A stretch of 64,000 nucleotides of DNA, taken from NCBI RefSeq assembly GCF_001949145.1, contig NW_019091356.1, positions 4,446,934 to 4,510,933 of the forward strand, given 5' to 3'. Positions 5,369 through 34,817 of the stretch are shown here, piece after piece (position 1 is the stretch's first letter; the number at the start of each line of letters is the position of its first letter). The notes beneath the pieces are model-generated. The model ran no database searches. It was not told the origin of the DNA and saw nothing but the letters and a program-made list of their open reading frames with translations. Made by a program: the position numbers and the translations under genes. The stretch is from Acanthaster planci (taxonomy: Eukaryota).

Positions 5369-5956
5369 ATGGCCTGCTTTGGTTGTTGCCGACAAAGATC
5401 AAGCGACTACGTGGATGGGGAGACAGGAATAGAGATGAAGAAGGCATCATCAGAAGACAACTTGGTGGGCACCCACACCCACTACAAAATATTTGTGAAG
5501 ACTGGCGATCGCAAAGGCGCTGGTACAGATGCTAACATCTACATCATCCTACACAACGAGAGTCTTGTCGCCTCCAAAGAGATCAAGCTGGACCGGCTGT
5601 TCCATGATGATTTTGAGAGGGGGAAGACCGACGAGTTTAAGACCAAACTCCCCGTCGAGTTTGGTGCCGTGGCGAAGATTGAGCTCTGGCGGGACGAGTG
5701 CGGCGCATTCGACCCGTGGTACCTGGAGAAAATCGACATCTTTGAGACACCCAAGGAAGGGCCCAAGAAGGGGCCGTACGAGTTCCCCGTCCATCGGTGG
5801 ATTCAGGCCAATAAAAGGGTGTTTTTTCACCGGTATGACTCCCTGCTACCCCAGAATGATCCCCTGAAGGACACGCAGAGGAAGGAAGAAATGCGGGAAT
5901 TACGGCAAATCTATCAGTTCAGGAGCCAGGCCCCGGAGGCGGGAATTCCATGTCAG
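5369..5956 (+). CDS. Lipoxygenase 1 variable first coding exon A (Cys-rich N-terminus + PLAT/LH2 domain), 196 codons
   Basis: ATG at 5369. PLAT motifs [31 protein letters not shown] and FPVHRW. Ends ...GIPCQ at CAG|GTGGGT, phase 0, compatible with the phase-0 constant exon at 14151. Confidence 0.85.
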
Positions 5957-6399
5957 GTGGGTAGGCCTGCACAAAGCGGTTGAATGATGGCTATATCGGG
6001 TGTGTGCACGTAAGATTCTACTCCAGGTTAGAATTTTTTTGGATTGCATGAATCTACACTGACTGTCAGAATGCGACAAGAGCGTGCGTGCGGGTGTTTG
6101 CGTCGCGAGACGCGCTCCAACATTTGTGGTACATGTGTGGAGTCATGGCATGGTCAGGCTGATTAAATGAGATTTTTTTTTATACTCCTTTTATAAAATT
6201 CTGGTTCTTTGTGGATCTGTCAAGCATAATGCAGACATCCTTGATGCTCAAAACATCTTCGTTAACTTCAGAGTTGTGTATTATCATTAGTTGTTCTGGT
6301 AAAAATGTTAATACATATATTATAGGGCACAGTGTCTCCCAGTATCCGTAATTGAAAGGCGTTGATGCGTTATCATTATATATGCGCATTGGGCTCGTA

Positions 6400-6650
6400 A
6401 CATCTGAACATTCCTGAAACCATCTCAGCTCCTTGGGGAGTATGCTATCTTGATGCCACAATATCAGGTTCAAACGGCTAAACACAATATCCATGCCTCC
6501 GTAGGTGCCTATTTACTCACTCCTTGGTTGGAGAGAAGCACTGACGAAGGGGTAAAGTGACTTGCCCTTTAGATCGCAAAATGCTGCCACCAGCTGGATT
6601 CGAATCCCCAACCTTGTCACTCGAAGCCAGAAATGCTAACCACTACAGGT
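6400..6650 (-). mobile_element. tRNA-derived SINE (CORE-like), degenerate
   Basis: The minus strand reads GTAGTGGTTAGCA (A-box-like) ... GGGATTCGAATCC (B-box-like), followed by GGGCAAGTCACTTT, which resembles the CORE-SINE motif. The 3' boundary is approximate. Confidence 0.55.
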
Positions 6651-7401
6651 CAAATGCCGTATACACGAGACCAATGTGCCCCAATGCATCAATGATCCTC
6701 AGCATTATGTATCGCTTGTCAAGTTAGATTATCCTAGAGGTTGATGTTATTTCTTGTTTGGTTTTTTCTATCGTTTGGGTGTCATATTTGTACACCCATA
6801 GATACTCTTCGGCTAGTTTGAAATAGTATCCATGATGGAAAATGTTAAGTTGGCTGCAGATGGCTTCGTTTATTTGTTAAGCAAGAAAAATGTGACCTTT
6901 CATCAACACCCTCTCGTCATCGAGCGGCTTGTTTACATGATATACACCCCATAAAACAAACAAAGAGTTATGATATGGGTCTGGTATGTTATTAGACCGA
7001 AGAAAGAACGGACTGAAGATACTAATGCTGAATATTCAAATCAGTACTTTTCCCTCCAAATTGACTGATCAACTTCTTCGGGTTCTCTGATGGGGCGGAC
7101 GAGAACCACAAATATTCAGAAGATACGACCCCTCAGCACCTTTGAGATATGGTTGAGATTGTACCAGAATTTTACAACCGGGTTTACCGGTTGTAAACTT
7201 CCTGATAACCCCCCAGAGGACAAAAATCCACGTTTTTAACCTTCAGACTAGAACCCGGATATGCCATGTTATCATCATTTCAAACAATGAATATGTATGG
7301 CCCCTTTCGTAGTATGACAAATGGAATCTGTTGAGTGCTGTATGTGTGCGTCATATGTCTGAAAATATGGACGGGTTTTGAAGAACATGAATGCTTGGTC
7401 C

Positions 7402-7569
7402 CAGCGGCGTAGCGAAGGCATTTTCTTGGGGGGTGTGTGCCCGGGTCAATTTGCTGACTGGTCGATACAATTTCAGTTTCATTTGCCGACTGACCCTTTA
7501 TTTGCCGACTGAAAAGAATTATTGGGGGTGCGACATCCCCCTCCAACATCCCCGCTCGCTACGCCGCTG
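7402..7569. mobile_element. hAT-type MITE with 8-bp target-site duplication
   Basis: Terminal inverted repeats CAGCGGCGTAGCGA...TCGCTACGCCGCTG. CTTGGTCC is duplicated at 7394-7401 and 7570-7577. Confidence 0.85.
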
Positions 7570-8444
7570 CTTGGTCCGGATATAAAAGAATTATTGAGGG
7601 GGTGCAACACACCCCCACACCTCCCACATCCCCGCTCGCTACGCCACTGCTCGGTCCGGTTACTGTGAGTGTGACGGGTGTGCTATACAGAATGACAGAG
7701 AATAAAAGATTCATGGAAAGCTGTTCCGTCACAATGAGTGACTTAGGTCATTGTTAGAAGCCTGTTTGTTGTGCCAATACCCGGCTACATGGATGGTTAG
7801 GCATCGGTACAGCCTACAGGTGTACGTGTATATGTACTGTATGTGGTTCATTAGCCTGCATGGGAAACCCAGCTGAGAATGGCTTCACTGGCAAATTATC
7901 CAAGTCTTGGGCCAAAAGTCTACTAGCGGGGTTGGTGTGATTAGGTCAGGTCATGAAGTCAAATTCCCAACCCTGAAGCGCACTGTGAGCATACCCTTTC
8001 CATTCATGGCTTTCACTGAACCGTACAAATCCAAGATGCGTCACTGGACTACCCTATTTGCTCCAACCATAGAGCTAGGATTGTGTTCCTAGCTCTATGC
8101 TCCAACCATGCTCCAACTGCTATCTTGCGAGCATTGTGTTAAAGCGGCCTCGACCTTTCTTGCACCACCATACACGGATTGAGTTCACACGGACTCCATT
8201 GGGCCACACGTACACACAGGGAGACTGTAAATACATTGCATATGATGTACAGTGTATCCGGAAGCCACACGGGTATTAAAGATTAGCCGAATCGCACACG
8301 GAAACTTTTACTAGAATTGCAACGCACCAGTTGCGTGATAGCTGTACACCGACTTACACGTACATGTACACTGCACACCAGCAAGGTGGTCAATATTACA
8401 AACTTTGAACACCATTCTGGACTGTCTACGGCGTTTTAACCACT

Positions 8445-8951
8445 ATGGATGACGAATACAAGGCTACTAGCACCCATACGATTTACAAGATCCTCGTCAA
8501 AACCGGGGATATGAAAGGTGCTGGTACAGACGCCAACATCTACATCATCCTGCATAACAAGAAGAAGGTGGCTTCCAAGGAGATCAAGCTACACCGCAAA
8601 ATCCATAACGCCTTCGAGAGGGGCCACACCGACAAATTCAAAGCCAAGCTGCCGGCCGAGTTTGGTGCTGTTGAAAAGATCGAGCTGTGGCGGGACAAGC
8701 ATGGCGCCTTCGATGCCTGGTACCTGGAGAAGATCGACATATTTGAGAAACCCAAGGAGGGGCCCAAGAAGGGGCCGTACGAGTTCCCCGTCCATCGGTG
8801 GATTCCGGCTAGGAAGAGGGTCATGTTTCACCAGTATGATACGCTGCTCCCCCAACATGATCCTCTCAAGGAAACGCAGAGAAAGGAAGAATTAGAAGAA
8901 TTCAAGGGGACTTACACTTTCAGAAGTCAAGCCCCAGGTCTTCCATGTCAG
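8445..8951 (+). CDS. Lipoxygenase 1 variable first coding exon B (PLAT/LH2 domain, no Cys-rich extension), 169 codons
   Basis: ATG at 8445. Motifs [31 protein letters not shown] and FPVHRW. Ends ...GLPCQ at CAG|GTAAGG, phase 0. Confidence 0.85.
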
Positions 8952-10237
8952 GTAAGGCAATGTTCTGATGACGTCAACGGGAAATTTTATCATTCCTTGA
9001 ACTCTGAAAGGTCTCGGCATTCATTTTAAAAGTGCTGATAAGTGATATTTACAGATCCTTGGGAGGGAGGGTAGCGATCACGATGATTTTGAGGAATATT
9101 TATTCATATTTCTCCCCCGAACGCGTGACCGTTTGTAAAAAAGTCTTGAATGAAGGCTAACCTTTAGGTCGTGTCATGGGTACCGTACCACAGGCGTCTC
9201 TGGTTTCCGGTTCGGAGCAAGCTCTGGGTCCAATGTTATGTGTGGTTTTCGCCGACAGTCAACTCGTTGCCTACTGATAGGTCTATCAAGAGACGAATAA
9301 ATATTGCTGATTTACTGATGGTCTTCGGAAAGTACCGGCCAAACCTACGGCAATTTTCAACTTTATCCCTATAGGAAAATCTTTCCCGTGGCCCGGTACA
9401 CTTTTTTTCTAGCTTTACCGGTCTGTCTTCAATTTTAGCGCCAATCACAAACCGACAATAATCGTATCCGCTGTAACCGATACCACAAGTGAACCCACTC
9501 CAAGATACTCTCATCAGGAAAACTTTGATATCATGCGTTGTTTGTACAATTTGACTGCTGACATTTTTCCACAATCATCGGCTGTATTCTGTTCTGTGTT
9601 TGTAGACTTCATTTCCTGGTCATATTATCGTCCCGTTGACCTTCGATGTCGGAAATCCATGTACACACCGCAGAAGTTTGGCAACTACAAACAGGCTGCT
9701 TCTTTGCCCTGTGAACGTCGTATTCTCAAAATGAAAGGCAATTTCAAAAGCGGCCGTTCTAGTTTAATTAAATGAAGTAGAACTTTTGAAAATTGGTTTA
9801 CAACCAAAATGTATTGGATTGGGGACCATGTGCATTATGTGTGATGGTAGATGGACGGGGTACTGTATTATATTATGCTATTTTCTACAAACATTTTTTC
9901 AAAGTACATCGTTTTGCTCGTAAAACGCTAGGTCGTCGTGCATCGCCATCTATTTTATTTGATCATTGTAAGCATACTTGGTGTCCAGATCCACTTTGGA
10001 ACTGAACAATAAATATACTTACGGTCGTAAACAAGTACTTATATATTGGTGTTCTAAGGGGACGGGTTTTTCGAGTATCCCCTGTAAGCTTTGACTATCC
10101 TTTTATAAACGCTGGTTTAGGAGTTCGTGCTGAAGTACCCGTGGGATCCAATCGACTGTCTTTTGTTCAGAGGGATTTCGTTAGGGGAGATTCCGTTTGA
10201 ACTGTTGAGGATTCAAGAACGCAGAGGAGCCTGCAAG

Positions 10238-10723
10238 ATGTCCTGGTACCGCGTGGTTGTGAAGACGGGGGATTTGGTGGGTACTGGCACCGATGCAAAC
10301 GTCTACCTTGCCCTCTACAACACCGCTAATGTCCGATCCGAAAGCTTCAAGATGGACAACCAGTCGAAGAACGACTTTGAGCGGGGCCAGGTGGACTTGT
10401 TTGCGGTCAGGTTGAAGCGGGCGGGCTTCGGTAGCATCTCCCGGGTCGAGGTTTGGCGGGACGCGGCTGGGACTTTTGACGCGTGGCATCTGGAGAAGAT
10501 CGAGATCCACGATGCTGGAGGGCCCTAGAGAAAGGGCGGGAGGTCCCTGGCTGTCTTGCCCGTGCATCAATGGATTCTTCCCAAAAAGAAGATGCAGTTT
10601 ACCCTGTTCGATTGCTGTTTGCCACAGCGAGATCCTTTGGCCAAGACTCAGAGGAAAGAGGAACTGAAATATTCAAGGAAGAGCTACAAATTCAAGCCTC
10701 AAGCATTTGGACTTCCTTCTCAG
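10238..10723 (+). pseudogene. Lipoxygenase 1 variable exon C (divergent PLAT domain) interrupted by one in-frame TAG
   Basis: ATG at 10238: MSWYRVVVKTGDLVGTGTDAN...NDFERG...AWHLEKI...GGP*RKGGRSLAVLPVHQW...GLPSQ. ORFs 10127-10528 and 10556-10834 are in the same frame, separated only by TAG at 10526-10528. Donor CAG|GTACCC at 10723, phase 0. Confidence 0.75.
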
Positions 10724-12054
10724 GTACCCATTCTGAGTACCTTACACTATAGGTGTTACATTTACACCTGGTCCATATGTTCACTCATACGAGTTAAACT
10801 CGTAAAGCTACTTCAAAATTGTTTTATTAGCTAAAGCTTACAGTGCGACCTTCTTTCACCCCAAGTGCGGATTGACATCATCAATTTTTTTGAGGGGGGA
10901 GGGTTTTCAGAAAATTTCCTGTTCAAATATTGAAACAGAAAGAAAAAAAGAACGACCCAGGTCTAACATCCGGCCTCGAGTTCACACATCGGTCTGTATA
11001 TGTAGTCTGTTATTAGCTTATATCATCAGAAGTCATGTCCGTCACTGGATGAAGTTATAATTCCGGCAGATCTATTTCCGATACATTGTAAAAGTCACCC
11101 ATTTCACCACCTTGGGATTTCCCGACCAAATTGTCGATTTACACTTCCAAGAGCCATGTTCCCTGCCATGTTTATTTCTGTTGGCTTGCTCTTTAGCGGC
11201 CAAAGGTTATCTACTTCTGTCCTATTATTGCAGAAGAGAAAGTTGGAAATATTCCAAGCAATATAGCATTTTCACTGTGTACAGCTCTACATGGACATAG
11301 ATCTGGATTCCACGTCCCATGGTCCCATCATGTCTCAGTTGCAGTTGGATATCCAAATTTTTGTTCAATAATTCTGAACCCAAGGTGCTTGCATGACGCG
11401 AGGAAGCCAACAGAAACGTCACTGTATGGTGACAGTGCAAGTTACTTGGGGATGGGGATTTCGGTTGGACAGTCATTGATGACTGTCTCGTAAGCTCGTG
11501 TGGGATCTGCATAATCGCAAAAGAATCGAACACATTCTCAATCCCAGGGAATACTAAAATGGTTCATTCGACTGGTGTGTTCCTCTTTATTCGTTGAAGC
11601 ACAAAGTATAAATACTTTTCTAAGGTGGATATTTATCATTCGCAACACAGAAAACTTCACATCAATAGACTGAAGCTCCTCATTGTCTGTCAAACTCCAC
11701 ATCTATAAAAACACTTTTTGGCCGATCTCCCTCGGCAAATGATCAGTCCCTGCGTCACCGCATGTCCTGCTCAAAAATTTGCATATTCATATGAAGGCGA
11801 AACGCACTCTTTTTCCTGTTCACTGAGGCAAGGTAGAATCGTATTGTTGATACAAGGTCGCTGTATTAAAAAAGAGGTCAAACTGGAATTCGCACGGGCA
11901 GTGTACTCGGTGTGTGTTGGGTGTGAAGGGTCGTATTGGCCACTCTGCTTACGTGCAGACTCTTGTTTCGGGCGTTGTCATTGCCGAAGAGAACCACTCG
12001 CTGAAGTTTAGGACGGGGGCTTTGAACTTTAATTGACGACGGCAGTTCTTCATC

Positions 12055-12645
12055 ATGTCCCGTCTTCTGTGTTGTTGTGGTAATGGGTCGTCTAACGATG
12101 TCTCCGACGGTCAGGCTACTGCAATGAAAGAAGCGTCATCCGACGATAACTTGGCCGGTGCTCACACCCACTACAAGATCCTTGTGAAGACTGGCGATCG
12201 CAAAGGCGCTGGTACAGATGCTAACATCTACATCATCCTGCACAACGAGAATGGAGTCACTTCCAAGAAGATCAAGCTGGATCGGCTGTTCCACGATGAC
12301 TTCGAGAGAGGGAAAACCGATGAGTTTAAGGCCAAACTCCCAGCTGACTTCGGCGCTGTACATGAGATCGAGCTCTGGCGGGACGAACACGGTGCCTTCG
12401 ACCCGTGGTACCTGGAGAAAATCGATATCTTCGAGACGCCCAAGGATGCCCCAGAGAAGGGGCCGTACGAGTTCCCCGTCCACCGGTGGATTCCGGCCAA
12501 GAAGAGTGTCATTTTCCGTCAGTATGACTCACTGTTGCCTCAGCATGACCCACGCAAAGATTCACAACGCAAGGAGGAGATGGAGGAAATAAGGGAGATT
12601 TATCAGTTCAGGAGCCAGGCCCCTGAAGCAGGGTTACCTTCTCAG
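12055..12645 (+). CDS. Lipoxygenase 1 variable first coding exon D (Cys-rich N-terminus + PLAT/LH2), 197 codons; proximal to the constant region
   Basis: [10 protein letters not shown]... with PLAT motifs. Ends ...GLPSQ at CAG|GTGAGT, phase 0. Confidence 0.9.
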
Positions 12646-14150
12646 GTGAGTACCCAATATCGTATGAGGTGACCAGCAGCGATATCACTGTTAAAAGGTC
12701 ATTCCGTTTTGCAAATAACTCGACAAAAAATGAATAATGTCTTCGGGGATAATGTATTACTGCGAAACCATTCAGCATTTTGGAAACGCAAGGTGGCAGT
12801 AAACTTTATCCAGCATGTACATACTTCATTAATTTTTAATCCGTTACCATAGTAATCTGGGATCATAATTCTTGTCAAATCACTCTAAAAATTGTCAAGA
12901 TGGTCTTTCTTCCAAGGATTAGGCCTAGGCTCTACTTGTTAACAAATCATGCCATCCGAGGTTAGTTAATGTTGTGTAGTATTTTGTTCCCAACCTATAG
13001 AACGGAATCTTCCAATTTGCATTTCAAAATAAGCATTGCAACTTTTATTGTACCACTGTGTGCTTTTGCTGTGGTACGTCGACATCCTGTCCTAGAAAAG
13101 GACATTTCTGGAAAAGGCCCCATGGAGGAAATGCTTTTATAGTCCATGGTACAACTGATGAAGTGAATCCGCGTGTACGTGGAACCGTAAGTTGTAGACT
13201 TTGATCTGGGAGCTGCATCGTGGTTCACACGCAATTCGCAACATGAGTCAGTATGGCCACAGGTCCGTGGTTGAAAAAGTCAGGATCACATTTAACCAGA
13301 AATATTCGAATTCATATTTGGCCTACACTTTGATTATAAAATGTCGCTTACGAGCGAGATGCCCACCGTCATTCCCCGACCCCGATTTCAGTGGCCTTTC
13401 AAGCTAGTTTAAGTGCTCGAGGCAAAGGTGACAACCAACTGTCCTTTGAGTAATCTCTGAAAAGGTTCGAGTTCGCTTTGTATTTTTCACAAGTGACGTC
13501 CAGGTACCTGGTATCACAGAGCTAGGAACACATTATGCTTGTATCAAGGTCAACTCCCATAGGGCCGGGGCCTATCACTGCATTCTGCAGTGGAATATTT
13601 GCTCAGGGATCCTCTGCAGAATTGAGAAGGATGATGTTCTCTACGCTTTGGATGAGTGACTGAGAATGGTGCAAATGGCACTGACACGGTGCTGTTTGGG
13701 GTTCGTCTTTGTATAACCAATTGGGGGGGGTCAATTAGCATACGTTCCCGACCTCCCTCGTCTGCGACCCGGCTTCCAATTCCACCTGGGCTGGCCATGG
13801 ACTGACAAGTGGATTGGAGTTTTAGTTCCCGCGAAACTCTGGACTACACTTCCTTTGCCAGAAACCTCGGTTTTCTTCAATAGAAAATAAATTATTCAGT
13901 TGACTTGTATTTCGCCCTTCTTCCCAACAGACAACAGGTGTATGTATTTTCGACTTCTTACATTCATCACTGACCCACTTTCTCGTTCATCAGCGCACTT
14001 CTGTAGCAGAAAAATCAAGGAGCGACAGCTGCTCTTCAATTTCAAGTTGAGAAACTCAATGCAGCATTCAATATTACGAGAGGGCATTTTTAGACTTGGT
14101 TCCTGTTATTTCAAATACTGTAAATATTTTGCTTATACTTTTGACGCCAG

Positions 14151-17100
14151 GTGGCCGAGCTGCCAAGTGACGAGAAGTTCTCCTTCGATTATTTGGTAAG
14201 TGAGGCATGCAGGGACGTTGCCTTAAATATCAGCGAGTCATAAATTGTGGATTTATATTATGTTTGTGTAACAAACTGGTTTATAATTTATGCTAATAAA
14301 CGACATGCCTACGAATACCTTGCCTGACGTGCAATATTGATTGGCTGTCCCGTCAAACAAAAACATTTTATTTTTTTTCCTATGCCCAGTTTGACCTCGT
14401 CAAGAGAAAGGCTAACCTACTCCTGCAAAGCAAACTGTCCAAGACATTTACGGGCAAGTGGCGCAACCTGGATGATCTCAAGAACGTCTACCACGGGGTG
14501 TTCCCTAAACCTGATGTAAGGCATTTCGAGACTTTTGTTGTCTTCGGTCCATAAATCTGTAGTACTTTTTCTCTAGATTTGAGAGTTCCATGTAAATGGC
14601 GACCAATGCATGTAACTCTATGTGCAGTGGATGGGCAGAAGGCGTGGTTTAAACTGAAGTTTTTTTTCTGGTTCAGAGTTACTTCATACTTTCGTATTCT
14701 ATAAACTAAGATACAAAAATGTATCAATCTAATTTCAAACATAGAGTGTTTATTCATTGAATATGTTGTGCCCTCTACTTTGGGGTGAAACCACTTCCGT
14801 GTTTTATATTTCAGGGAATGCGGATGTGGCGTTCTGACATCGAGTTCGGTCTGCAGCGACTGATCAGATGCAACCCTACCCAAATTCGACTCTTCACGGA
14901 AGTCCCAGAGAAGTACGTGAAGCTAGAACGAATTTCCTTCTGGGAAAGTTTTTTTATGGGATTAAAGTATCTGCAAGTACTATCCCATCTGAGGTTACGA
15001 ATGGCGGTTTCTTTGCTGTGAATAAGTTTGACGCTAACACTCATTGGTGTTATCTGAGGCAGTATTTCCACTGCAGTCGGTATTACTGAAGAAAACGCGT
15101 AGACTTATTTGAGGGAAATTCTTGGGTAAAACGGCAGCGTACATAACCGCCCCGAAGAGCTCTGAACGACGACAAATTAGCAAATGTAGTCTGGCTCCTT
15201 GACCTGGAAGGTGATTGTTTTGATGAATCCAAAATGCCCGAGTCAGACTTACAATTGGGCTTTTTATTTCCCGGGCCTTTGTATCCAATCGCATTTGAGT
15301 AGTGCCGCATTCTTAACTTGTCAGGTTTGGTGTGACCGATGAAATGGTTGGACCATTCTTGGAAGGCATGACAATCCAGGAGGCTATCGCGAAGAAGAAG
15401 CTGTACTACATCGACTATGAAATTCTAAAAAACCTTCCCGTTAAACAGGGAACACCGGTAAGGGCACATCAGCATTTTCTGAGAAGGTTACAGTTTCGAG
15501 CCTCCAAGACCACACACTTCCTTCTTCAAAATAATGCCCCCAATGTTTGCACTTTGTGAGTTTTTATCTCAGTTTCTTTGAGACGTGGAAGCCTGTTGAT
15601 CCCTTAACCCTAACCCTCCTCAAACCTCCAAAATCCTCTGGGTAGTTTTGAAGGATTTTGGAGGATTGAGACTGGATGCAAATTTTTAATGTAAAAAATC
15701 GGAGGATTTTGGAGGATTGGATATGGTTTCTCGTAAAAAAGAGCCCGGGCGGGTTCGGGTTAATGTGGATTTGTAATTTGCACTTGAGGTATAGATTCAT
15801 CTGGAGAGAGAACTGAAGTTTCGTCGCCCTCGTTCTGAATGTTTGTGCTGTTTTATGCCAACCGCATGTTGAGTATTACGAAGAGTGTATCATTTTAAGC
15901 CCTTTTCCCCGAAATAGAAGCATTTTGTAAATTCTGCTTTGTTTGCAGGTTGTTTCACCGATTGGACTGTTCTTTGTGGATAAGAACAAGCATCTCATGC
16001 CTGTTGCTTTGCAGTTGGAGCAACAGAAAGGACCAGATAACCCGGTAAGTCTTTTGCTATGGTTATAGTTTGCTTGGTTGATTTGAGATTGATCACAGGT
16101 AAGTTAGCTGATTGAAGATTGATCTTTGGTCAGCTGCCTGATTGAAGGCTGATCACAACTTAATTGCCAAGATTGATCGCTGCTTTGTTACCCGGTTGAA
16201 GATTGATCACAGGTTAGTTGCCTGATTTAAGATTGATCATAGTTGTCTGCCATTATTGACGATGTATCTTTGGTTAGCGGTTAGCTTGATTGATCACTAA
16301 TTAGTTACCTGATTAAAGATTTATCTTGGTTTTCTGCCTGATTGAAGAAGGATCGCTGGTAAGCTGCTTGGTTTAGATTTTTTGTCCTTGAATAGATAGC
16401 TGGATATTCCATGGTTGACCGCTCCATTGTGACCTCGATAGCTGAGTTGCCTGAGATAATATGTCAAAAGCTTTGTTTGTTAACTTATTTGCTGTCTGAG
16501 CATTTCTTATTTGTTGAAACTCTTCAGGTCTTTCTGCCCAGCGACCCGGAGTACACCTGGCTCTTGGCCAAGATGTGGTTCAACTTTGCCGACGCGTCGT
16601 ACCACCAGTCTTGCACCCATCTGGGCCTGACCCATCTGGTGATGGAATCCGTGGCGGCTACCATGCATTGCGCCCTCTCTCCTTCACATCCGCTCTTTCG
16701 GCTCCTGGCACCGCACTTCCTGTTTCTCATGGCCATCAACAGGTACACACACCTCATGGTCGACTAATTTTTGTAGTCAAGGGAAGGCGGTGAATTGTTG
16801 GCAAGGCTGTTAACAGGAGGGAATCATATGTAGTAATCGAAGCTTTTCAGAGATGAAATGAAGTAGGGAAAGATGCTAGTTACTCTTTTCTCTGTGTTTG
16901 TAGACATCAGCCAGTATTCATAGGACAATTTGATCATGTTTAAACTTTGTCTTCTGTATTTATTTCCTCGCTTTCTTCGTAAACGCAGCCGTGGTCTTGC
17001 TCTTCTGATCTCAGTCGATGGCTGGGTGGATAAGACTATGAACATCGGACGTGACGGGATGTTTGAGCTGATTGGCCGTGCCTTCAAGCGTTGGCGCCTG

Positions 17101-18889
17101 AATGTGGAAGGTACCATCATCAACGATTTGAAGGCACGCGAGGTCGATGACACCAATGCACTTCCAGACTACCACTATCGAGATGATGGAGTGCTGATTT
17201 ACGAGGCGATGGAGAAATACGTCAGAGTTGTTGTGGAATCACATTACGGTGAGGACAAACTTACGTCTCCATATTCAAAACGAGTCAATCACAGGGGCTC
17301 ATTCAGCTTGATGTTTTTACATTGGACTCCATGTATCGCAACTAATTTTAATTATATCCTGTATTTCAATGTGCGACTTGAACATCCAAGACACTTCATT
17401 TTTTGTTTTTAATAGAAACTCCTGATATGATTACTGGGGACTATGAACTCCAGGAATGGGGGCGTTTGATGGCCACGCCCCAGGATAACGGAGGAGCTGG
17501 TGTTCAGGTATTAACTCAAATATATGTAACATTTTCAATTCTAGTTACATATTTCACGAAACGGCTCTGGAAAGGGCAAGAAAGTACGGTATGTAGATTT
17601 GTGCCAGAACTTCGAAATAGACACCTCATTTCAAACCGAAATTTATTTGTATAACTAACTCACTCACCCCAGGGTATTCCGGCAGACGGCAAGTTCGCCA
17701 ACGTTGAGGATGTTATCAGCACTGTTACGCCTATCATGTTCACCTGTAGCGTGTCACACTGCGTGGCCAACTTCTCCCAGTATGACGACTACGCCTTCCC
17801 TCCTCATTATCCTGCTGGCATGAGGATGCCCCCGCCTACAGATAAGGTAAGATTTACACTAAATTCCATGTAACATTGGGTAAGATTTACCCAAACTAAC
17901 ATGAGAATCGTGTTTTTATCTGCATTCGATTTCGTTTAAATATTGTTGGTGAATGAAATCCCCTAGCTGCAGAGACAGACATACAAAGATATAAGAACGG
18001 CTGTGGTTTTGTTGTCTATTTTCTCTTACGTTTTCTCCGCCTTAAATTGCGCAACAAAATTCCTTACTGTCGCCAAACTGTAAATTATCCGACAAGGTTT
18101 GCACTGTGTACCGTTTGCCTTTGTGCTTTTGTCTTTCTTTTTCTGTTTTAATTTTTTGACTTTTACTGAGTAATTATTTGTTCTTAGTCCCCGCGTTCTG
18201 AGAAGGACATCTTAGACAACTTACCTGAGAAGAATGTGACGGTCGATGTCATGACAGTCACTCGTCTGCTCAGTGAGAAGGCCACCAATAGTTTGGGTGA
18301 CTTTGAAATGCAGTACGGATTCTGTCCTGTTGCTGTCAAGGCCCTGGAACAGTAAGAGCATTGAAAAGAGATTTTTCCCTTGTTCAAGGCTCAGCGAAAC
18401 TCACACGGAAGCCTTTCACAATACAAACAGTGAAATTTTGTAATTTGGAAATCTAATCGAAATCGTTCTCACTCGTAGATCTGATTTCATGTGTAACCAT
18501 TTCGTCGTCTTCCATACCAATATCATGCTTTTTTAATGAGAACTTCTGAACACTAAAAATGGATTCGTTTGTTTCATATTTCTAGTCTGTATGCTTTTAA
18601 CAATCTAAACATATTCTGTATGAACGGCATGTATCACTCTTGTATTACGTGGAGAGCGTTTTTACCCCATGTAGATTACACCAACACGTTCATAATATCT
18701 ACCATCTTAATTTTCAGTAGATCGTTTTATATATTAATCTTTTTAATCCACATCTTTGCCTTTTTCTCCATCAGGTTCCGGAAGGACCTAAAGCAGATTG
18801 AGGTCATCATCGATGAGCGAAACAGACATCGGGAGTTTCCTTATGATTACTGCCATCCCAAGGAGGTCCCAAACGCTATCAGTATCTAA
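14151..18889 (+). CDS. Lipoxygenase 1 constant region (catalytic domain, 11 exons, 505 aa)
   Basis: Exons 14151-14195, 14390-14515, 14815-14912, 15325-15457, 15949-16044, 16528-16742, 16989-17248, 17416-17507, 17673-17846, 18188-18351 and 18775-18889. All introns are GT-AG and the phases join into one open frame. LOX motifs: [19 protein letters not shown] (Fe ligands), SHCVANF and C-terminal PNAISI (terminal Ile ligand). Confidence 0.93.
15608..15759. mobile_element. piggyBac-like MITE in a LOX1 intron
   Basis: Flanked by TTAA at 15604-15607 and 15760-15763. Imperfect terminal inverted repeats CCCTAACCCTCC / GGCGGGTTCGGG. Absent from the equivalent LOX2 intron. Confidence 0.55.
16075..16380. 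repeat. Degenerate ~29-bp tandem repeat (TTGAAGATTGATCACAGGTTAGTTGCCTGA-like) in a LOX1 intron
   Basis: Repeated GATTGATC / TGATTGAAG cores. A related array sits in the same intron of LOX2. Confidence 0.75.
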
Positions 18890-19218
18890 CTACGAATCCT
18901 CTAAACTCCATGGAGTACAGGGAGAGGAGATAAAATGGGCAAGTTTGGAAAAACCCAGCTTACCAACGCTCTGGGAATAATTCTTCGGTTTCACGACGAA
19001 GTGACGTATCGTGGATAGTTTCCCCACCACGACATTACTTCGTGGTGAACCCGACGAATGTCTGAAAGAATTGCCTTGTATTTCAGAAAAGAAAATGCTG
19101 ATAAAGAATTACTCAATGTTTCAGGAAAAAAAATGAATGCGCAAAAATGAAATAATATGCGCCAAGTCGTAACAACTTTGAGGTTATTACGTAGATATGC
19201 AGTTTTTCGTTTTTTCCA

Positions 19219-19224
19219 AATAAA
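19219..19224 (+). terminator. Candidate polyadenylation signal of LOX1 (AATAAA; a second one at 19459-19464)
   Basis: AATAAA about 330 nt after the stop codon. The aligned region of the LOX2 3' UTR has ATTAAA. Confidence 0.45.
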
Positions 19225-21283
19225 GGTTGGAGGTTAAAGAAATCAATTTACTGTTTCAGAAATTCGTAGAAAGTGCTAGTTTTTGCTTTTGCGGAGCGGT
19301 CAAGTACGCTTTTTAAAACGTAAAAGTACTAGACACTCTATAGCTTTTCTGTTTATTGGATACCGTACCTTACTATTAAGATGACACCTGCTATGCAGTA
19401 TTAAATAGAACATGTAGCGTGCTTACATATGTATGGCTTTTTGGTTTCACTGTATCTTAATAAACTGTACCGAATTGTTGCTTCTCAAAACTATACGGTT
19501 TGAAGCTTATGACGTGGGCATTTTGTGTCGAGTTTACGCAATATTTTGTCACGTACCGTTGTCTTGTTGGGAGGTTGGTGGTGCCTTGCATGGGTTTAGG
19601 TTTTAGGTTTACATGTGATAAGTAATTCCAAATACATTGTACAGCTAAATATTTTGGATTGCAAAGTACTCATACTTCATACTCATTCAGTATACACGTA
19701 TGTTTTCCTTCATTTTGTAAAGAGGGCTGTGGTGGTTTTTTTTCTAACCATTTAGTAATTCAATTATTGGGTGTCAGTTCCTTGCGAGTCCCTTTATACG
19801 CGGAGGTTAATTATGGTTTCGAACATTTTTTGAGTCTGGGGCTGCAGGAAACGTATTTTTCTAAAAGACTATCAAGTAAACAATATTGTTAAGCTACTGT
19901 TATTATTAAGCGATGGTTGTGAGGATTCAGTAGTTTCCTTCGGCGATGCACAGGCGGTGCAGATGTCTGGATCGCATCACCGGTGATGCGGCGCATGAAT
20001 GACTGGCTGTAGTTGGTAAAAACCAGCCGGTGATTACCGGCCCAGTATACGGTCTAACCAAGTAGCACCTTCGCGGCAAGACTAAACAACCTGTACAGGA
20101 TCGAGACATTATGAATGACTACATGTTACTTTGCATTGAGTTGTATGATCCAGGATTTGTAAACATTTGTAATAAATAAGTCGCCAACAATTCTTTTGAC
20201 GCAAGAGTCTATAAACTTTTCGTTGTAAACGGAATTACGTATTTTGCTGCAACAATTTTTCCCCTATAAACAGGACTCTGCACTCGCACTCAGAAGCGAA
20301 GATAAGTTTGTTAAAAGCGAAATTTTGTTCCTGCCGAGTTAGTAATAATGATAGTCCATTGTACATACATGATTTTACTCTTTCTTTGCAAGAAGCTAGC
20401 TGGTTAAAGTATTTCTATTAATACTCGAAAAGCAACACACTCTTTGTCGTTTATTTAACTTGTACACGTCGGTTGAATATAGATTTATGGCTAGTTTTAT
20501 TTCCGAATGTCTAGTTTTTGTTGTCTTCACCTGGGTTTGGACGACTTTTGAACATTTCAGAGTTCGTAACTGTTTATAATGCGGCTATAAGTTTTGAATG
20601 CAAATAAACATAGAGCAATTATTTTGGGTGTAGTTAAACTTGGTGATCACAATCTTTTCATTTTACTCCTCAGTGGTCGAAAGTAGTTCTGATTTATACC
20701 CATACTTCAAGCCATTTCAAGCACAGCGACATTCCAGAAACAAAGCACAATACCTGTCTAAACGCTGAGCAAAACAGATTAAAGCGCTTTCCGTTATTAC
20801 CCCTGCTCACAGGGCCCATGAAACATTCCAAATACCATCTAAGCTCCCCAGGGACAGAATTCCTTTGGTTTAAAATTTGTCTGTGACCATTTTCTGGGGA
20901 TTCTTTCCTCACTGACGTCTCAGCAACTTAAAGTAACGTCGTTTTGGCCGATGATGGCGTCCTACCAGGCAGCTGCCAACGATTCGGGGCCGGGAAGTCT
21001 AGTTCCCTGCCCAAAGATTCCCTGACAACTCTTGATAAAAAATCTTGGGTCAGGTACACTGATCTCTGTACCCTGGATAGGCAGCTCTGCTCTACCAATG
21101 ATAGCCAGCACGATATGCGGTAAGGGGGAACCCCCAATGTGATGCACAAGCTGTATACCCTAAGGTTGTTGCGCCAAAATGCACCCCTCTTAAAAATCTG
21201 AAAGGAATTCCAAAGATGTCATCAACACAAAAGAAGACACAAGGGGGGGTCCCCTTTGCCGCATATCGCTCATCATATGCCTC

Positions 21284-21607
21284 TGTTACGCCCCAACTAT
21301 AGCATCAGTCCCAACTATAGTTGGGCCCGTCCCTACTAGAGTGCTACAGTCGGACCGGCCCAACTACAGCAGAGAGATCCTGTGTGCATGATGTGCCCAG
21401 CATGTGCCAAAGTCATATTGTTTACAAATGTCATGTCACTGGTCATAGAGCTAAATGCCACATTTTTGATGAATTGTGTCAAGTGTGAGACACATTGACT
21501 CGAATAATGTTGAGACATTTCCCTCAGACATCGGTCAAAAATAGTTGGGCCAGCCCGAACTGCAGCTCTACAGTTGGGACTCAGTGTCCCATAGTTGGGG
21601 CGTAACA
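21284..21607. mobile_element. Non-autonomous TGT...ACA element with 4-bp target-site duplication (Ginger-like MITE)
   Basis: Perfect 17-bp terminal inverted repeats TGTTACGCCCCAACTAT / ATAGTTGGGGCGTAACA. CCTC is duplicated at 21280-21283 and 21608-21611. Internal CCCAACTATAG sub-repeats. Confidence 0.8.
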
Positions 21608-21891
21608 CCTCCAATTCAGAAGCGACTGCGCGGCCATCTTAGGCTTCTTCAATACAACGGCAGTTTTCAAGTCACCGGCTCAAGTGCCATGCAAGTACAT
21701 GTAGGTCCCATTGTATTGAATACCCTAAGATGACTGCGTGGTCACTTCAATTCACACATAGGCAGTTACTGCTGAGCTGCCTATCCAGTGTATCATGGAG
21801 GAGTGTATAGAGATCAGTGGTCATCAGGCATCACCCACGGATATAAATAGATATGACGCAAGGGTCAGAAATTGATAGCCTGAGCGTTTTT

Positions 21892-23290: not shown

Positions 23291-26200
23291 ATGTCCCGTC
23301 TTCTGTGTTGCTGCGGCAACAAGTCGCCTAACCATGTTTCCGACGGTCAGGCTACTGCAATGAAAGAAGCGTCATCCGACGACTTGGCCGGTGCTCACAC
23401 CCACTACAAGATCCTTGTGAAGACTGGCGATCGCAAAGGCGCTGGTACAGATGCTAACATCTACATCATCCTGCACAACGAGAATGGAGTCACTTCCAAG
23501 AAGATCAAGCTGGATCGGCTGTTCCACGATGACTTCGAGAGAGGGAAAACCGATGAGTTTAAGGCCAAACTCCCAGCTGACTTCGGCGCTGTACATGAGA
23601 TCGAGCTCTGGCGGGACGAACACGGTGCCTTCGACCCGTGGTACCTGGAGAAAATCGATATCTTCGAGACGCCCAAGGAGGGGCCTAAGAAGGGGCCGTA
23701 CGAGTTCCCCGTCCACCGGTGGATTCCGGCCAAGAAGAGGGTCATGTTCCGTCAGTATGACTCACTCTTGCCTCAGCATGACCCACGCAAAGATTCACAA
23801 CGCAAGGAGGAGATGGAGGAAATAAAGAAGATTTATGAGTTGAAGAGCCAAGCTCCTGAGGCAGGCATACCTCTCCAGGTCAGTACCTCAAGAATTCAAA
23901 GCTGTGTACGGTGAACAACAGTTATTTCCCTCTTAACAGTAAGTTAACAGTAAGTCAGTTGACTCGAAAAAACCTTGTCTTTAGGAGTTAGGCAAATTCA
24001 GTTCAAAGTATTGACTTTATTAATTCTGTCATCTTAGGAATTTGGGATCAAATCTCTTGTACAAATGTAAACTTTTATTATTAAGCTGGATCTTTCTTAC
24101 AAAGATTGGGGTCTACTTGTTGGTAAATCAGAATATATCATCCAAAATTAAGTTAGAAGGTAACAAAGTTGATGTAGTATAATAATCATGCTACCGGATG
24201 TGAGAAACCTTGATATTATAGGTCATGATATTCCAATGTCTTCTTTAGAGCCTGGTATTTATTTATGTATTTGAAAATCTTTAGACAGGACATCAGCTCT
24301 AAGGCTGTTTTACATCATAGTCCTGTGTAGTACAGAGACAATGGACAATTAAGAGGGTAAAATGGTAACATTAAAATTAACTAACAAGGGCATAAAAACT
24401 GTTTTTAAAAATACCTAATTAAAAATAAAGCTTCTTATACATAATTTTAAACCGTCCAAAGAGGATGCATTTTGGACTTTAGCTGGTATGTTGTTCCATA
24501 TAATAGCTTCAGAATAGTTGAGAGATTGCTTAACACATTCCATGTTGGGCCTAGGGACCACAACATTAAGGGAATCAGCGTTTTCTAGTGTTAAATCTAT
24601 GGTATAGTGATTTAGATTAGATGCAATCAACATCCCGCCCAATTAGTAAAGGAAATTTCCGAAAGAGGTCCTGTTGTACAACGAATTAAGCTAATTCCAC
24701 GCTATACGTTGCGAAAAATCCTTCTGGAAACGGTGCCATTGAAGTTTGGTAGATTTTGAACACAAAAATTTGACCTACTTGAAATTTTAGTCCACACGCT
24801 ACGGCACACGTCACAACGCCCACTGATCTGTGGGTGACAAAGTCAAGATCAGAATCAACAAGAAATAGGCTTATTCGAATTGACGAAATTTGGTGGTGAC
24901 GCGTCAAGATGCATCTGCATTAGAAGACGGTCCTCTTTTCTTTAGTAAGTTGTTATCAATTGAACTCAATGAGGTATACAGTGATTCCGGCCTCGGAATC
25001 TAGCTGCGTAATTTGCGTGATCAGTTTTCTTTAAGCTAGGTATCCAGTGGCGTATATTTACGTCGAACTTTGTTGTGAGTCATAGAAAGATAGAGAATTC
25101 AGCTTCCCTTACCTGGAAGGCTTTCTACGACTATTCTGGTCAAAGAGAACTGCTTGTTTATCATCACTTAAAGTCAAAGTTTTTCGGCGGTGAGGTTACT
25201 GATATTTGATATTTTCACTGCGATGATGAGTGCGACTGAAAGGCACATAGGCTACTGCGAAATAGAGAAACCATTTTGGACTGTTGAATTACACGCATCG
25301 TTTATGAAGATATTGCAACGTGTGAGAAATCCACGTTTATTCCCCGGCCTCGGTGTCTTTATGGGTTCTTGCTACCTGCTGTATGTTTAACAACCGTCCT
25401 TTGTTATTTTTGAAAGGGTATGGGTTTGCTTTGTATTTTTCACCAATGGCATATCTGGCCTTGATGTCTTTACTGAGCATCAAGGCCAACTTGTTTATCA
25501 TAGCACTTCGCACTGAAATATTCAGTCAGGAAAAAGAGCTGTTAAAAGTCCTTATACGCGTTTAAGTGTATAACCTTTGAACTTGCACCAACATGGATAC
25601 CCTCTGGTAGGCTACCGGCCAGACCAGAAATGCCTGGATCTCTAGTTGTGCAGTTTTGATGACAAGAGGAAATGTTTGGTGTGGTTTATAGGTTTAAAAC
25701 ATGTTGTGTGCATACTTAATTGGTACACGTTGTGGGAAGTTCCGTTTTGCTTAGTTAAGGAGTCGTTGTACAGGTTGATGTACAAATGTAAAAGCATTTC
25801 CATCCTACGACAATATGGATTTATTTTTGGTTCTTATCAAATTCAGACTACGCTGCTTTACTTTTTCAGAAACCGAAAATTATTTCATTTGTACTTCCTG
25901 TAGAATTCGTAGGTTTTATACTGAATTGTGGCTTTGCCTTTCTCTCCTGTCGGTATAGGCCTCTGCATTTTGGCATTGTTACGTTTATCCGCGCACTTTC
26001 ATTTCAGAATGGAACCGCAACTGTTCTTCAAGTTGACACATTTATTATATATACATGTATACATCTTTCAAGTTTGTGAAAAGGCAATCGGGAACTTGGG
26101 TTCTTTATTTCAAATACTGTAAATATTTTGCTTATACTTTTGACGCCAGGTGGCCGAGCTGCCAGGTGACGAGAAGTTCTCCTTTGAGTATTTGGTAAGA

Positions 26201-29200: not shown

Positions 29201-30384
29201 TGCTCTGTAAAATGAGCAAATGTATGCAGATCTGATCAGGACTTCTGAATGGATCCCCAAAAGCGAACCGAAATTTGTTCAACTGGAGTAAAGAATGCGA
29301 ACTAACTAATTTACCCCAGGGTATTCCGGCTGACGGCAATTTCGCGAACGTCGAGGATGTCATCAGTACCGTTGCGCCCATCATGTTCACCTGCAGCGTG
29401 TCTCACTGCGTGGCCAACTTCTCTATGTACGATGACTACGCCTTCCCTCCCCACTGCCCGACAGGGATGAGGATGCCCCCACCCACCGATAAGGTTTGAT
29501 TTGTGACCTGCTCATTTAGTTCTTACGTCAGAGCAACATTAATGACTCGCGCCAAACCGTATGAAATTTGCATTGAAACTCGTATGCTTGTTTTTGTTTA
29601 TTTTTTTGTTTTGTTTGATTCTTTATAAGTTATCATTTACCTTTCTTACATGAAGTCTCCACGGACTGAGAAAGACATCTTAGACAACCTGCACGATAAG
29701 ACATTGACGGTTGATGTCATGATAGTCACTCGTCTGCTCAGTGAGAAGGCCACCAATAGTTTGGGTGACTTTGAAATGCAGTACGGATTCTGTCCTGTCG
29801 CTGTCAAGGCCCTGGAACAGTAAGACAATTAAAAAGAGAGATGTTTCCCCTTTTCCAAGGTTCTTCAAAACTCTTTCATCACAGATTTACGGAAACAGGA
29901 CGTAACAGTTCAAATTTTGTCACATGCTGATCTTATTAATATTGTCCTCATTGCATAGCTTTTTGATATTTGACCATTTTGTTGTCTTACGTGCCGTTTC
30001 TGTGCTTTTTCTAGTATGACCTTTCCTGGTGGAAATTGAATAAGTTTACAGTCAATTGATTAATGTCAAATTAATTAATTTAATTTAAAAGTCAAATTAT
30101 TGATTTTGTTTTTGAACGGCAGAAATAATTACTACACTGCCACTGTACATCATTTTGTATCCAATGGCTTACTCGAACATATTCATAACATACATCATCT
30201 TAACTTTCAGTATATCGGTATTATAGAAATAATCTTTTTAATCCACATCTTTGCTTTTTTCTCCATCAGGTTTCGGAAGGACCTAAAGCAGATTGAGATC
30301 ATCATCGATGAGCGAAACAAAAATCGGGAGTTTCCTTATGATTACTGTCATCCTAAGGAAATCCCAAATGCTATCAGTATCTAA
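23291..30384 (+). CDS. Lipoxygenase 2 (PLAT + catalytic domain, 12 coding exons, 701 aa)
   Basis: Exons 23291-23878, 26150-26194, 26384-26509, 26811-26908, 27242-27374, 27637-27732, 28166-28380, 28635-28894, 29061-29152, 29320-29493, 29656-29819 and 30270-30384. Constant-exon sizes and phases are identical to LOX1. HLGLTHL, HCVANF and PNAISI are intact. Confidence 0.93.
24400..24620 (-). mobile_element. 3' fragment of a non-LTR retrotransposon (CR1/L2-type ORF2 C-terminus) in LOX2 intron 1
   Basis: Translation [42 protein letters not shown] resembles the conserved 'P+P..E..K.SFSY.G..LWN.LP..++...SL..FK..L' ORF2 end. Confidence 0.6.
27765..27960. repeat. Degenerate tandem repeat homologous to the 16075-16380 array
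   Basis: Repeated TGAAGATTGATCACTGGTT-like units in the equivalent intron of LOX2. Confidence 0.6.
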
Positions 30385-32052: not shown

Positions 32053-32275
32053 GCCTCGTGGGTTTTCAATAATTCCTTTCAAAATACAAGAATTCAAATC
32101 AAGTATTAAACAACTGAAAATAAACAATGATTTCCAAAAGTTTTGTGAAATCTATTGAGGTAATCTGTCGTTTTAATGAAATACACTTTAACAGAATGCT
32201 GTACCAAAAGTACTAAATGGCGGTCTGACAGAATGCTGCATCACAGTTAAGGACGGTTCGACTCCTCTTTTTTTT

Positions 32276-32939
32276 NNNNNNNNNNNNNNNNNNNNNNNNN
32301 NNNNNNNNNNNNNNNNNNNNNNNNNNNNNNNNNNNNNNNNNNNNNNNNNNNNNNNNNNNNNNNNNNNNNNNNNNNNNNNNNNNNNNNNNNNNNNNNNNNN
32401 NNNNNNNNNNNNNNNNNNNNNNNNNNNNNNNNNNNNNNNNNNNNNNNNNNNNNNNNNNNNNNNNNNNNNNNNNNNNNNNNNNNNNNNNNNNNNNNNNNNN
32501 NNNNNNNNNNNNNNNNNNNNNNNNNNNNNNNNNNNNNNNNNNNNNNNNNNNNNNNNNNNNNNNNNNNNNNNNNNNNNNNNNNNNNNNNNNNNNNNNNNNN
32601 NNNNNNNNNNNNNNNNNNNNNNNNNNNNNNNNNNNNNNNNNNNNNNNNNNNNNNNNNNNNNNNNNNNNNNNNNNNNNNNNNNNNNNNNNNNNNNNNNNNN
32701 NNNNNNNNNNNNNNNNNNNNNNNNNNNNNNNNNNNNNNNNNNNNNNNNNNNNNNNNNNNNNNNNNNNNNNNNNNNNNNNNNNNNNNNNNNNNNNNNNNNN
32801 NNNNNNNNNNNNNNNNNNNNNNNNNNNNNNNNNNNNNNNNNNNNNNNNNNNNNNNNNNNNNNNNNNNNNNNNNNNNNNNNNNNNNNNNNNNNNNNNNNNN
32901 NNNNNNNNNNNNNNNNNNNNNNNNNNNNNNNNNNNNNNN
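32276..32939. other. Assembly gap covering the alpha-tubulin C-terminus
   Basis: Run of N bases that interrupts the tubulin ORF after ...IATIKTK. Confidence 0.99.

Positions 32940-34817
<1,878 letters not shown>

What the first reader, a model, noticed from the sequence alone, without database searches (positions are those of the whole stretch)
5369..18889. Lipoxygenase with an array of four interchangeable PLAT-domain first exons feeding one constant catalytic region
Seen in the sequence: four exons (5369-5956, 8445-8951, 10238-10723, 12055-12645) each start with their own ATG and encode a whole PLAT/LH2 domain. Each ends at the homologous codon (..GIPCQ, ..GLPCQ, ..GLPSQ, ..GLPSQ) with a phase-0 CAG|GT donor. 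I found no catalytic exons between them. The only downstream partner is the phase-0 exon VAELPSDEKFSFDYL at 14151, which starts an intact 505-aa catalytic region. Established: animal LOXs normally have one PLAT plus one catalytic domain, and the PLAT domain governs Ca2+-dependent membrane binding. Variable-first-exon/constant-region arrays are known for clustered protocadherins and UGT1A. Inference: promoter choice or mutually exclusive splicing would give about 701, 674, (667) and 702-aa isoforms with the same chemistry but different membrane-targeting modules. I do not know of this design being described for a lipoxygenase.
Basis: partly seen in the sequence, partly recalled or inferred. Interest (0 to 1): 0.93.

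Follow-up and report, generated by a model that had tools for sequence, protein, structure and literature searches.

The report
Lipoxygenase with swappable front domains
A sea star gene makes one fat-oxidising enzyme in three versions by splicing any of three duplicated front-domain exons onto the same catalytic part, a design also seen in gene models of scallops and other bivalves, abalones and a barnacle, and likely used to send the same enzyme to different places in the cell.

Summary
The array is real and used, but it has three working cassettes, not four. Raw RNA reads join A, B and D each directly to the constant exon at 14151, in proportions that differ strongly between runs. No cassette-to-cassette joint and no shared leader exon was listed. 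C has an in-frame stop and only background reads. The window is Acanthaster planci; RefSeq already lists the three products as isoforms X1-X3. Patiria has orthologous A-, B- and D-type heads on one tail, and the cassettes are under purifying selection (dN/dS 0.07-0.12). New here: the same swap, at the homologous residue, appears in gene models of 11 species (2 sea stars, 8 molluscs, 1 barnacle). The heads group by phylum, so the design probably arose three times. Heads differ in targeting-type features: Cys-rich tails, Met-Gly starts, long basic presequences or none, and sea star B lacks two acidic residues of the Ca2+/membrane loop. Likely function, untested: promoter choice sets where and how the same enzyme docks. 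It is a variant of the UGT1/protocadherin design; six paper searches found no description for a lipoxygenase.

The parts
5369..5956 (+). Variable first exon A (coding part): 37-aa tail with 3 Cys in the first 12 residues, PLAT domain and linker; gives the 701-aa isoform
   Evidence: Pfam PLAT; joint to 14151 in 9, 6 and 3 reads of X13, X17, X14; identical to the head of RefSeq XP_022087837
8445..8951 (+). Variable first exon B (coding part): short tail without Cys, PLAT domain with loop LHRKIHNAFE; gives the 674-aa isoform; 5' UTR reads reach back to about 7950
   Evidence: Joint to 14151 in 5 of 5 RNA runs: 3, 1, 69, 36, 14 reads; XP_022087846
10238..10723 (+). Pseudo-exon C: the most divergent PLAT cassette (45-47% identical to A, B, D), in-frame TAG at 10526-10528, no frameshift
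   Evidence: no joint listed in the 3 RNA runs and depth at intron level; recent loss suggested by simulation
12055..12645 (+). Variable first exon D (coding part): 38-aa tail with Cys-Cys-Cys, PLAT domain and linker; gives the 702-aa isoform; many molecules begin at about 11960
   Evidence: Joint to 14151 in 4 of 5 RNA runs: 3, 34, 63, 5, 0 reads; XP_022087827
14151..18889 (+). Constant region, 11 exons: 14151-14195, 14390-14515, 14815-14912, 15325-15457, 15949-16044, 16528-16742, 16989-17248, 17416-17507, 17673-17846, 18188-18351, 18775-18889; 505-aa lipoxygenase catalytic domain
   Evidence: Open frame; all 10 introns seen as GT..AG joints in 4 of 4 runs; Pfam Lipoxygenase E 1e-59; iron-ligand motifs and Gly at the stereo switch by alignment to solved structures
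18890..20435 (+). Long 3' UTR (end approximate)
   Evidence: High read depth continues through the 19772-20435 bin in 4 of 4 runs
23291..23878 (+). First exon E of a second, tandem lipoxygenase gene; recent copy of D
   Evidence: 94% nt identity to D; dS 0.08; reads in 3 of 4 runs; RefSeq XP_022087860
26150..30384 (+). Constant region of the second gene, 11 exons, 92% aa identical to the first, open frame

Best explanation
One lipoxygenase gene splices any one of three tandem first exons (A, B, D), each a whole PLAT domain with its own N-terminal tail, onto one shared catalytic region; each exon likely has its own promoter, and the choice likely sets where the enzyme docks and how it depends on Ca2+. 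Shown: the three junctions, their run-dependent use, purifying selection, orthologous cassettes in Patiria, and silence of C in the runs laid. Inferred: separate promoters (from read profiles, no CAGE). Predicted: A and D are lipid-anchored through their Cys clusters and keep the acidic Ca2+/membrane loop; B has no Cys tail and has His and Ala in place of two loop aspartates, so it would be more soluble and less Ca2+-driven. The product is predicted to have R stereochemistry in all isoforms. The whole PLAT module sits in one exon that holds the ATG and ends in phase 0, so a duplicate of that exon with its promoter is at once usable; this probably explains repeated origin in sea stars, molluscs and a barnacle.
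For: Junction reads A/B/D to 14151: X13 9/3/3, X17 6/69/63, X14 3/14/0; B/D in X16 1/34 and X20 36/5. Use differs between runs even when counting distinct read starts (A:B:D chi-square p 2e-8; X16 versus X20 p 2e-11). Junction sums match the gene-1-type exon 2-3 joint (15 vs 15; 138 vs 146; 17 vs 25), and gene-2-type reads are few (0, 7, 7). Depth is near zero upstream of A and rises separately before A, B and D. dN/dS 0.07-0.12 among A, B, D with dS 0.95-2.0; the 4 variants inside B that were displayed are all synonymous. Patiria X1/X3/X2 are the best matches of A/B/D (78.6, 80.5, 81.6% identity); tree support B+PmB 99/94, D/E/PmD 99/96. The second loop Asp is present in 34 of 34 non-B rows of alignment A1 and is Ala in both B rows; it aligns with D417 of coral 8R-LOX, in the loop whose W413 and F414 are listed as membrane-inserting and which is deleted in the Delta413-417 structures. 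12 of 18 groups of proteins sharing an identical last 300 aa swap the whole head at the homologous Q|V, in 11 species; tail types differ within each species.
Against: No localisation, acylation, Ca2+ or enzyme data. Tissue and stage of the runs are unknown, so differences may be between individuals. Libraries show both mate directions equally, so strand and true start sites are not shown. No shared upstream 8-10-mer among A, B and D, unlike the motif reported for Ugt1. A and D have the same tail type and nearly the same loop, so targeting alone does not explain keeping both. A+PmA orthology has only 77/83 support. Asterias rubens and A. amurensis have one annotated head each. The other species rest on public gene models whose genomes and reads I could not see. 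The assignment of these aspartates as Ca2+ ligands is recalled; the primary papers were not held. A review passage says hydrophobic side chains, not Ca2+, are the main driving force of membrane binding (PMC10889196).
Confidence: 0.7

Rival explanations
1. The cassettes are kept for their promoters: the array divides expression between tissues or stages, and the protein differences are tolerated drift.
For: Use differs strongly between runs; flanks share no sequence; A and D have similar tails and loops.
Against: B's tail loss and both loop changes are kept in two genera while the rest is under strong constraint. In four scallop species the head types are kept, with distinct tail classes.
Confidence: 0.2
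2. The heads tune catalysis (substrate choice, allosteric control through the PLAT-helix 2 interface) more than location.
For: PLAT removal or mutation alters rates and substrate specificity in other lipoxygenases (PMC7436259 passages). Each cassette also carries about 45 linker residues that pack on the catalytic domain.
Against: The interface Trp motif (HRW) is identical in A, B and D; the clearest differences lie in the tails and the membrane loop.
Confidence: 0.07
3. Orphan duplicates or an assembly collapse: A and B are dead copies, or each belongs to a hidden whole gene.
For: Whole-gene duplication did occur here (gene 2), and C is such a dead copy. Short reads cannot tell perfectly identical hidden constant regions apart.
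Against: A and B junction reads exist; dN/dS about 0.1; contigs of run X9 cover 7501-8789, 8780-11127, 11178-12132 and 12563-14178 at depth 14-18, equal in the last intron and between cassettes; the independent Patiria annotation gives the same three heads on one tail.
Confidence: 0.03

Closest known systems
Vertebrate variable-first-exon clusters UGT1, UGT2A and GCNT2 (PMC1885805, passages read)
   Same: Tandem homologous large first exons, each spliced alone to shared constant exons; an enzyme; pseudo-exons in the array; birth-and-death turnover. GCNT2 also has three variable exons.
   Different: In UGT1 the variable exon holds the substrate-binding half; here the catalytic domain is constant and the regulatory, membrane-binding domain varies. 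The paper calls those clusters vertebrate-specific; this one is in invertebrates. No shared upstream motif was found here.
Clustered protocadherins and chelicerate sDscam (PMC4835542, abstract read)
   Same: 5' cassettes chosen by promoter, joined to a constant 3' region; sDscam is an invertebrate, convergent case.
   Different: Those give tens of cell-recognition isoforms; here 2-5 heads on a cytoplasmic enzyme, with run-level bias and no evidence on stochastic single-cell choice.
Tandem exon duplication-derived N-terminal substitutions (39 events in human; PMC8373072, passages read)
   Same: The general class: duplicated 5' coding exon plus alternative promoter gives homologous N-termini, usually deeply conserved.
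   Different: The term ALOX does not occur in that paper's main text (supplements not seen); here a whole folded domain is swapped.
Coral Ca2+-dependent 8R- and 11R-lipoxygenases (PDB 2fnq, 3fg1, 3vf1) and human 5-LOX (3o8y)
   Same: Closest solved structures (E 4e-104 to 2e-92; TM 0.85-0.89); same PLAT loop motif; Gly at the stereo switch as in the two coral enzymes.
   Different: One fixed PLAT domain per gene as far as the papers read report; no Cys-rich tail; product of the sea star enzyme unknown.
RefSeq isoforms XP_022087827, XP_022087837, XP_022087846 (Acanthaster planci)
   Same: The same three proteins, already predicted by automated annotation as isoforms X1-X3.
   Different: No description of the design, of pseudo-exon C, or of its spread across phyla was found.

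Membership tests
Animal lipoxygenase | N-terminal PLAT domain plus lipoxygenase catalytic domain | tested here: met
   Pfam PF01477 and PF00305 above cut-off for the B and D isoforms; model of the B isoform pLDDT 91, pTM 0.92, TM 0.85-0.89 to solved lipoxygenases
Animal lipoxygenase | Iron ligands: two His of the His-rich helix, third His, Asn, C-terminal Ile | tested here: met
   H394, H399, H581, N585, I702 of the D isoform align with the conserved motifs of 5-LOX and coral enzymes; their role as ligands is recalled
Animal lipoxygenase | Dioxygenase activity on polyunsaturated fatty acids | not testable with these tools
   Needs an assay
R-specific lipoxygenase | Gly at the Ala/Gly switch | tested here: met
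   G437 aligns with Gly of 8R- and 11R-LOX and Ala of 5-LOX; the rule and its exceptions are in PMC13059375
Variable-first-exon/constant-region cluster (UGT1, Pcdh type) | Tandem homologous first exons upstream of one constant exon set | tested here: met
Variable-first-exon/constant-region cluster (UGT1, Pcdh type) | Each variable exon is spliced alone to the first constant exon | tested here: met
   A, B and D joints in raw reads; no cassette-to-cassette joint among the 11 joints listed (threshold 3 reads from 2 starts); not met for C
Variable-first-exon/constant-region cluster (UGT1, Pcdh type) | Each variable exon has its own promoter | tested here: inconclusive
   Read profiles fit (separate ramps, no leader joint, near-zero depth upstream of A), but there is no CAGE, and 106 loose-end rows were not shown
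Variable-first-exon/constant-region cluster (UGT1, Pcdh type) | Conserved DNA motif upstream of each variable exon | tested here: not met
   No exact 8-, 9- or 10-mer shared by the 600 bases upstream of A, B and D; degenerate motifs were not tested
Mutually exclusive internal exons (Dscam1 type) | A common upstream exon spliced to each alternative exon | tested here: not met
   No joint into any cassette from 2400 onward in 3 RNA runs; in-frame stops 6-12 codons upstream of the A, B and D ATGs
Multi-PLAT proteins (LOXHD1 type) | Several PLAT domains in one chain | tested here: not met
   No cassette-to-cassette joint; each annotated isoform has one PLAT

The most novel reading that the evidence does not exclude
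Invertebrate lipoxygenases have repeatedly evolved an address-label cassette system: in sea stars, molluscs and a barnacle, independently, one catalytic region is fed by 2-5 whole PLAT exons that carry different lipid-anchor signals, a mitochondrion-type presequence or no signal, often with one head whose Ca2+/membrane loop has degenerated. Promoter choice would thus route the same oxylipin or lipid-peroxide chemistry to different membranes, including possibly mitochondria in bivalves.
Probability: 0.45. Interest if true: 0.85.

Novelty: new variant of a known kind. Interest (0 to 1): 0.72.

Why it matters
Where a lipoxygenase acts decides what it makes and what it damages, and vertebrates settle this with separate genes. 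Here one gene offers natural domain swaps on a fixed active site, which makes a long-argued question directly testable: what the PLAT domain and its Ca2+ loop contribute to location, activation and substrate choice. Repeated origin in three phyla would make it a clear case of convergent gene architecture. It also means gene-level counts in sea star, scallop, abalone and barnacle transcriptomes pool isoforms that may behave differently. Recalled, not checked here: an 8R-lipoxygenase product triggers oocyte maturation in some sea stars; this predicted R-type enzyme is a candidate source.

Tried and rejected
No whole genome is held for the window, so related genomes were judged from protein records only. 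The run search listed no indexed holder on record as RNA; raw-read runs were laid instead: 5 of the 9 offered, from 3 studies, 18-24% of each read. In one search the A joint was not among the 15 rows shown (17 hidden), so A counts exist only for the three RNA runs. A search with cassette C read through its stop found no intact C-type isoform (1 unrelated hit among 610 candidates; weak evidence). The search of 50%-cluster representatives was swamped by multi-PLAT proteins and added nothing. Clusters of four sea urchin species groups, spider, Hydra, Trichoplax and Mytilus californianus showed no head swap (10 clusters); only the barnacle cluster did. Six of 18 shared-tail groups were not head swaps (exon skip, alleles or orthologs, an N-terminal extension, an internal difference). 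One cross-phylum clade of short, untargeted heads was rejected (AU p 1e-50). The Owenia row failed to parse and was left out of the head tree; one Dreissena head kept extra residues that the column filter dropped. Shared promoter words: none. Papers not held: Eek 2012, Bender 2016, Neau 2009. PMC7693274, PMC9682198 and PMC11270918 passages did not bear on the question. Three look-ups of earlier scan findings gave nothing on this design.
Full report
What is in the sequence. Four PLAT cassettes lie at the stated coordinates, each from an ATG to a phase-0 CAG|GT donor at the homologous Gln. A, B and D are open and score as whole PLAT domains. C has an in-frame TAG at codon 97 and no frameshift. 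Eleven constant exons (14151-18889) give an open 505-aa catalytic region. There is no N gap in the array, no catalytic remnant between cassettes, and similarity between cassettes stops at the exon edges. A second gene follows: one first exon E, a recent copy of D, with its own constant region, 92% identical in protein.

Identity. The spliced products are identical to RefSeq proteins of Acanthaster planci, listed as isoforms X1 (D, 702 aa), X2 (A, 701) and X3 (B, 674). The design is therefore implicit in automated annotation.

RNA evidence. I laid 5 of the 9 raw RNA runs offered (3 studies, 18-24% of each run). Reads joining A, B, D to 14151 were 9/3/3 (X13), 6/69/63 (X17) and 3/14/0 (X14); B and D were 1/34 (X16) and 36/5 (X20), with the A row not shown. 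All are GT..AG. One search listed 11 joints in all; none involved C, linked two cassettes or brought in a leader exon from 2400 onward. Depth over C matched the introns. Depth was near zero upstream of A and rose separately ahead of A, B and D. Cassette use differs between runs (p 2e-8 on distinct starts); tissue labels are not available, so this may be tissue, stage or individual. Junction sums match the gene-1-type exon 2-3 joint, so the partner is gene 1's constant region. Contigs of run X9 cover the spacers and the last intron at equal depth, against a collapse, though the tool warns that such depth is no copy number.

Selection and age. dN/dS among A, B and D is 0.07-0.12 at dS 0.95-2.0 (Nei-Gojobori, 156-158 codons). 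Patiria miniata has three isoforms on one tail whose heads are the best matches of A, B and D; B+PmB and D/E/PmD are starred clades, A+PmA is 77/83. C is older and more divergent (45-47% identity, dN/dS 0.19-0.39), yet has one lesion only; a neutral copy keeps at most one lesion with probability 0.22 at 5% divergence and 0.02 at 10%. So C was lost recently, or its stop is a polymorphism; I could not tell which. Asterias has one annotated head.

How the heads differ. A and D begin with three Cys in the first 12 residues, as do their Patiria orthologs and Asterias; B has none. That such clusters are S-acylated is recalled knowledge. The loop [10 protein letters not shown] of A and D aligns with LDKWFHNDFE of coral 8R-LOX, residues 410-419 by my count, whose W413 and F414 are listed as membrane-inserting (PMC1934363, table passage) and whose 413-417 stretch is deleted in several crystal forms. 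B has LHRKIHNAFE (Patiria LHRILHDAFE): both aspartates are replaced, and the second is Asp in all 34 non-B rows of alignment A1. That these aspartates bind Ca2+ is recalled; the primary papers were not held. Reviews support Ca2+-dependent membrane binding through PLAT loops, and also caution that hydrophobic residues drive binding (PMC7436259, PMC10889196, passages). The constant part keeps the iron-ligand motifs and has Gly at the stereo switch, predicting R products, with known exceptions (PMC13059375 passages). The B isoform models confidently as a normal two-domain lipoxygenase.

The design is not confined to sea stars. Among 335 proteins held, 104 were full-length lipoxygenases; 18 groups shared an identical last 300 residues; 12 of them swap the whole head at the homologous Q|V. 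They come from 11 species: Acanthaster (3 heads), Patiria (3), Mizuhopecten (5), Pecten (5), Argopecten (4 held), Ylistrum (3), Dreissena (3), Potamilus (3), Haliotis rubra and H. asinina (2 each) and the barnacle Amphibalanus (2, seen in two records). Heads are 40-60% identical in molluscs and barnacle. A Tegillarca model has two heads fused in a row, probably a mis-join. The sample is biased: I chose clusters whose names said isoform. Sea urchin, spider, Hydra and Trichoplax clusters showed no swap. These are gene models; I saw neither their genomes nor reads. Within species the tails fall into classes: Met-Gly with Cys, 53-81-residue basic tails with 0-1 acidic residues in the first 30, and short tails. 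Reading these as myristoylation/acylation and mitochondrial signals is inference. One head in scallops, Dreissena and the barnacle also lacks the first loop Asp, and the barnacle head lacks both.

Origin. The catalytic tree broadly follows the species tree (quick tree, 48 rows). Heads group by phylum: sea stars 99/98, molluscs 95/97, arthropods 96/90 (46 rows), and a cross-phylum clade of short heads is rejected. The simplest reading is three independent arrays; one old array with complete turnover in each lineage is not excluded. In molluscs the Met-Gly-Cys heads of scallops, Dreissena, Potamilus, Tegillarca and gastropods group together (92/93, not starred), so the bivalve array may be old.

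Mechanism. Shown: one-of-three splicing to a constant region, with variable use. Inferred: separate promoters. Predicted: different anchoring and Ca2+ dependence with the same chemistry (0.7). Rivals: regulatory division only (0.2), catalytic tuning (0.07), artefact (0.03).

Comparison with what is known. The layout is that of UGT1, GCNT2, protocadherins (PMC1885805, passages) and sDscam (PMC4835542, abstract), and belongs to the class of duplicated N-terminal exons, 39 cases in human (PMC8373072, passages). It differs in swapping the regulatory domain on a fixed active site, and no shared upstream motif was found. Six searches of the held library found no description for a lipoxygenase; a recent crown-of-thorns genome paper mentions these genes only as lacking the allene oxide synthase part (PMC13644484, one passage). 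Most subscription journals are not covered and no supplements were read; those of PMC13644484 and PMC8373072 could bear on novelty.

Verdict. Real, expressed, conserved; three working cassettes and one pseudo-exon; a new variant of a known kind of gene design, probably convergent in three phyla. Interest 0.72.

Noticed in passing
window 23291-30384: Second tandem lipoxygenase gene from a recent duplication of D plus the constant region; some stretches, including an intron edge at 15316-15551, are 97% identical between the genes, which suggests gene conversion. RefSeq also lists a form that skips its 45-base second exon (P0003).
   Followed up: partly
window 14166: All reads and contigs laid carry G where the window has A (Ser to Gly, as in gene 2); the reference allele is rare or an error.
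   Followed up: no
proteins P0265/P0327 (Physella) and P0316/P0261 (Biomphalaria): These snail lipoxygenases differ, or carry a tandem repeat, in the segment just behind the head (helix 2 region), which looks like a duplicated, mutually exclusive internal exon at the substrate entrance.
   Followed up: no
proteins P0049, P0052, P0057, P0058, P0056 (Branchiostoma): Amphioxus lipoxygenase models fused to a cytochrome P450 domain (PF00067) or a TIR domain (PF01582), by precomputed Pfam hits.
   Followed up: no
protein P0009 (Patiria): A 1385-aa model that is two whole lipoxygenases in a row, probably two tandem genes merged by annotation; both have Ala at the stereo switch.
   Followed up: partly
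window 32247-34300, minus strand: Alpha-tubulin-like gene (Pfam Tubulin) interrupted by a 664-base N gap.
   Followed up: partly
window 37891-40218, minus strand: Exons that resemble the C-terminal part of a BMI1/PCGF polycomb protein (recalled resemblance; no Pfam hit for the piece tested).
   Followed up: no
window 36359-36889, 6400-6620, 7430-7660, 20990-21870: Repeat remnants: a piece resembling a LINE reverse-transcriptase end (recalled; no Pfam hit), and short high-copy elements that attract many reads and contigs.
   Followed up: no
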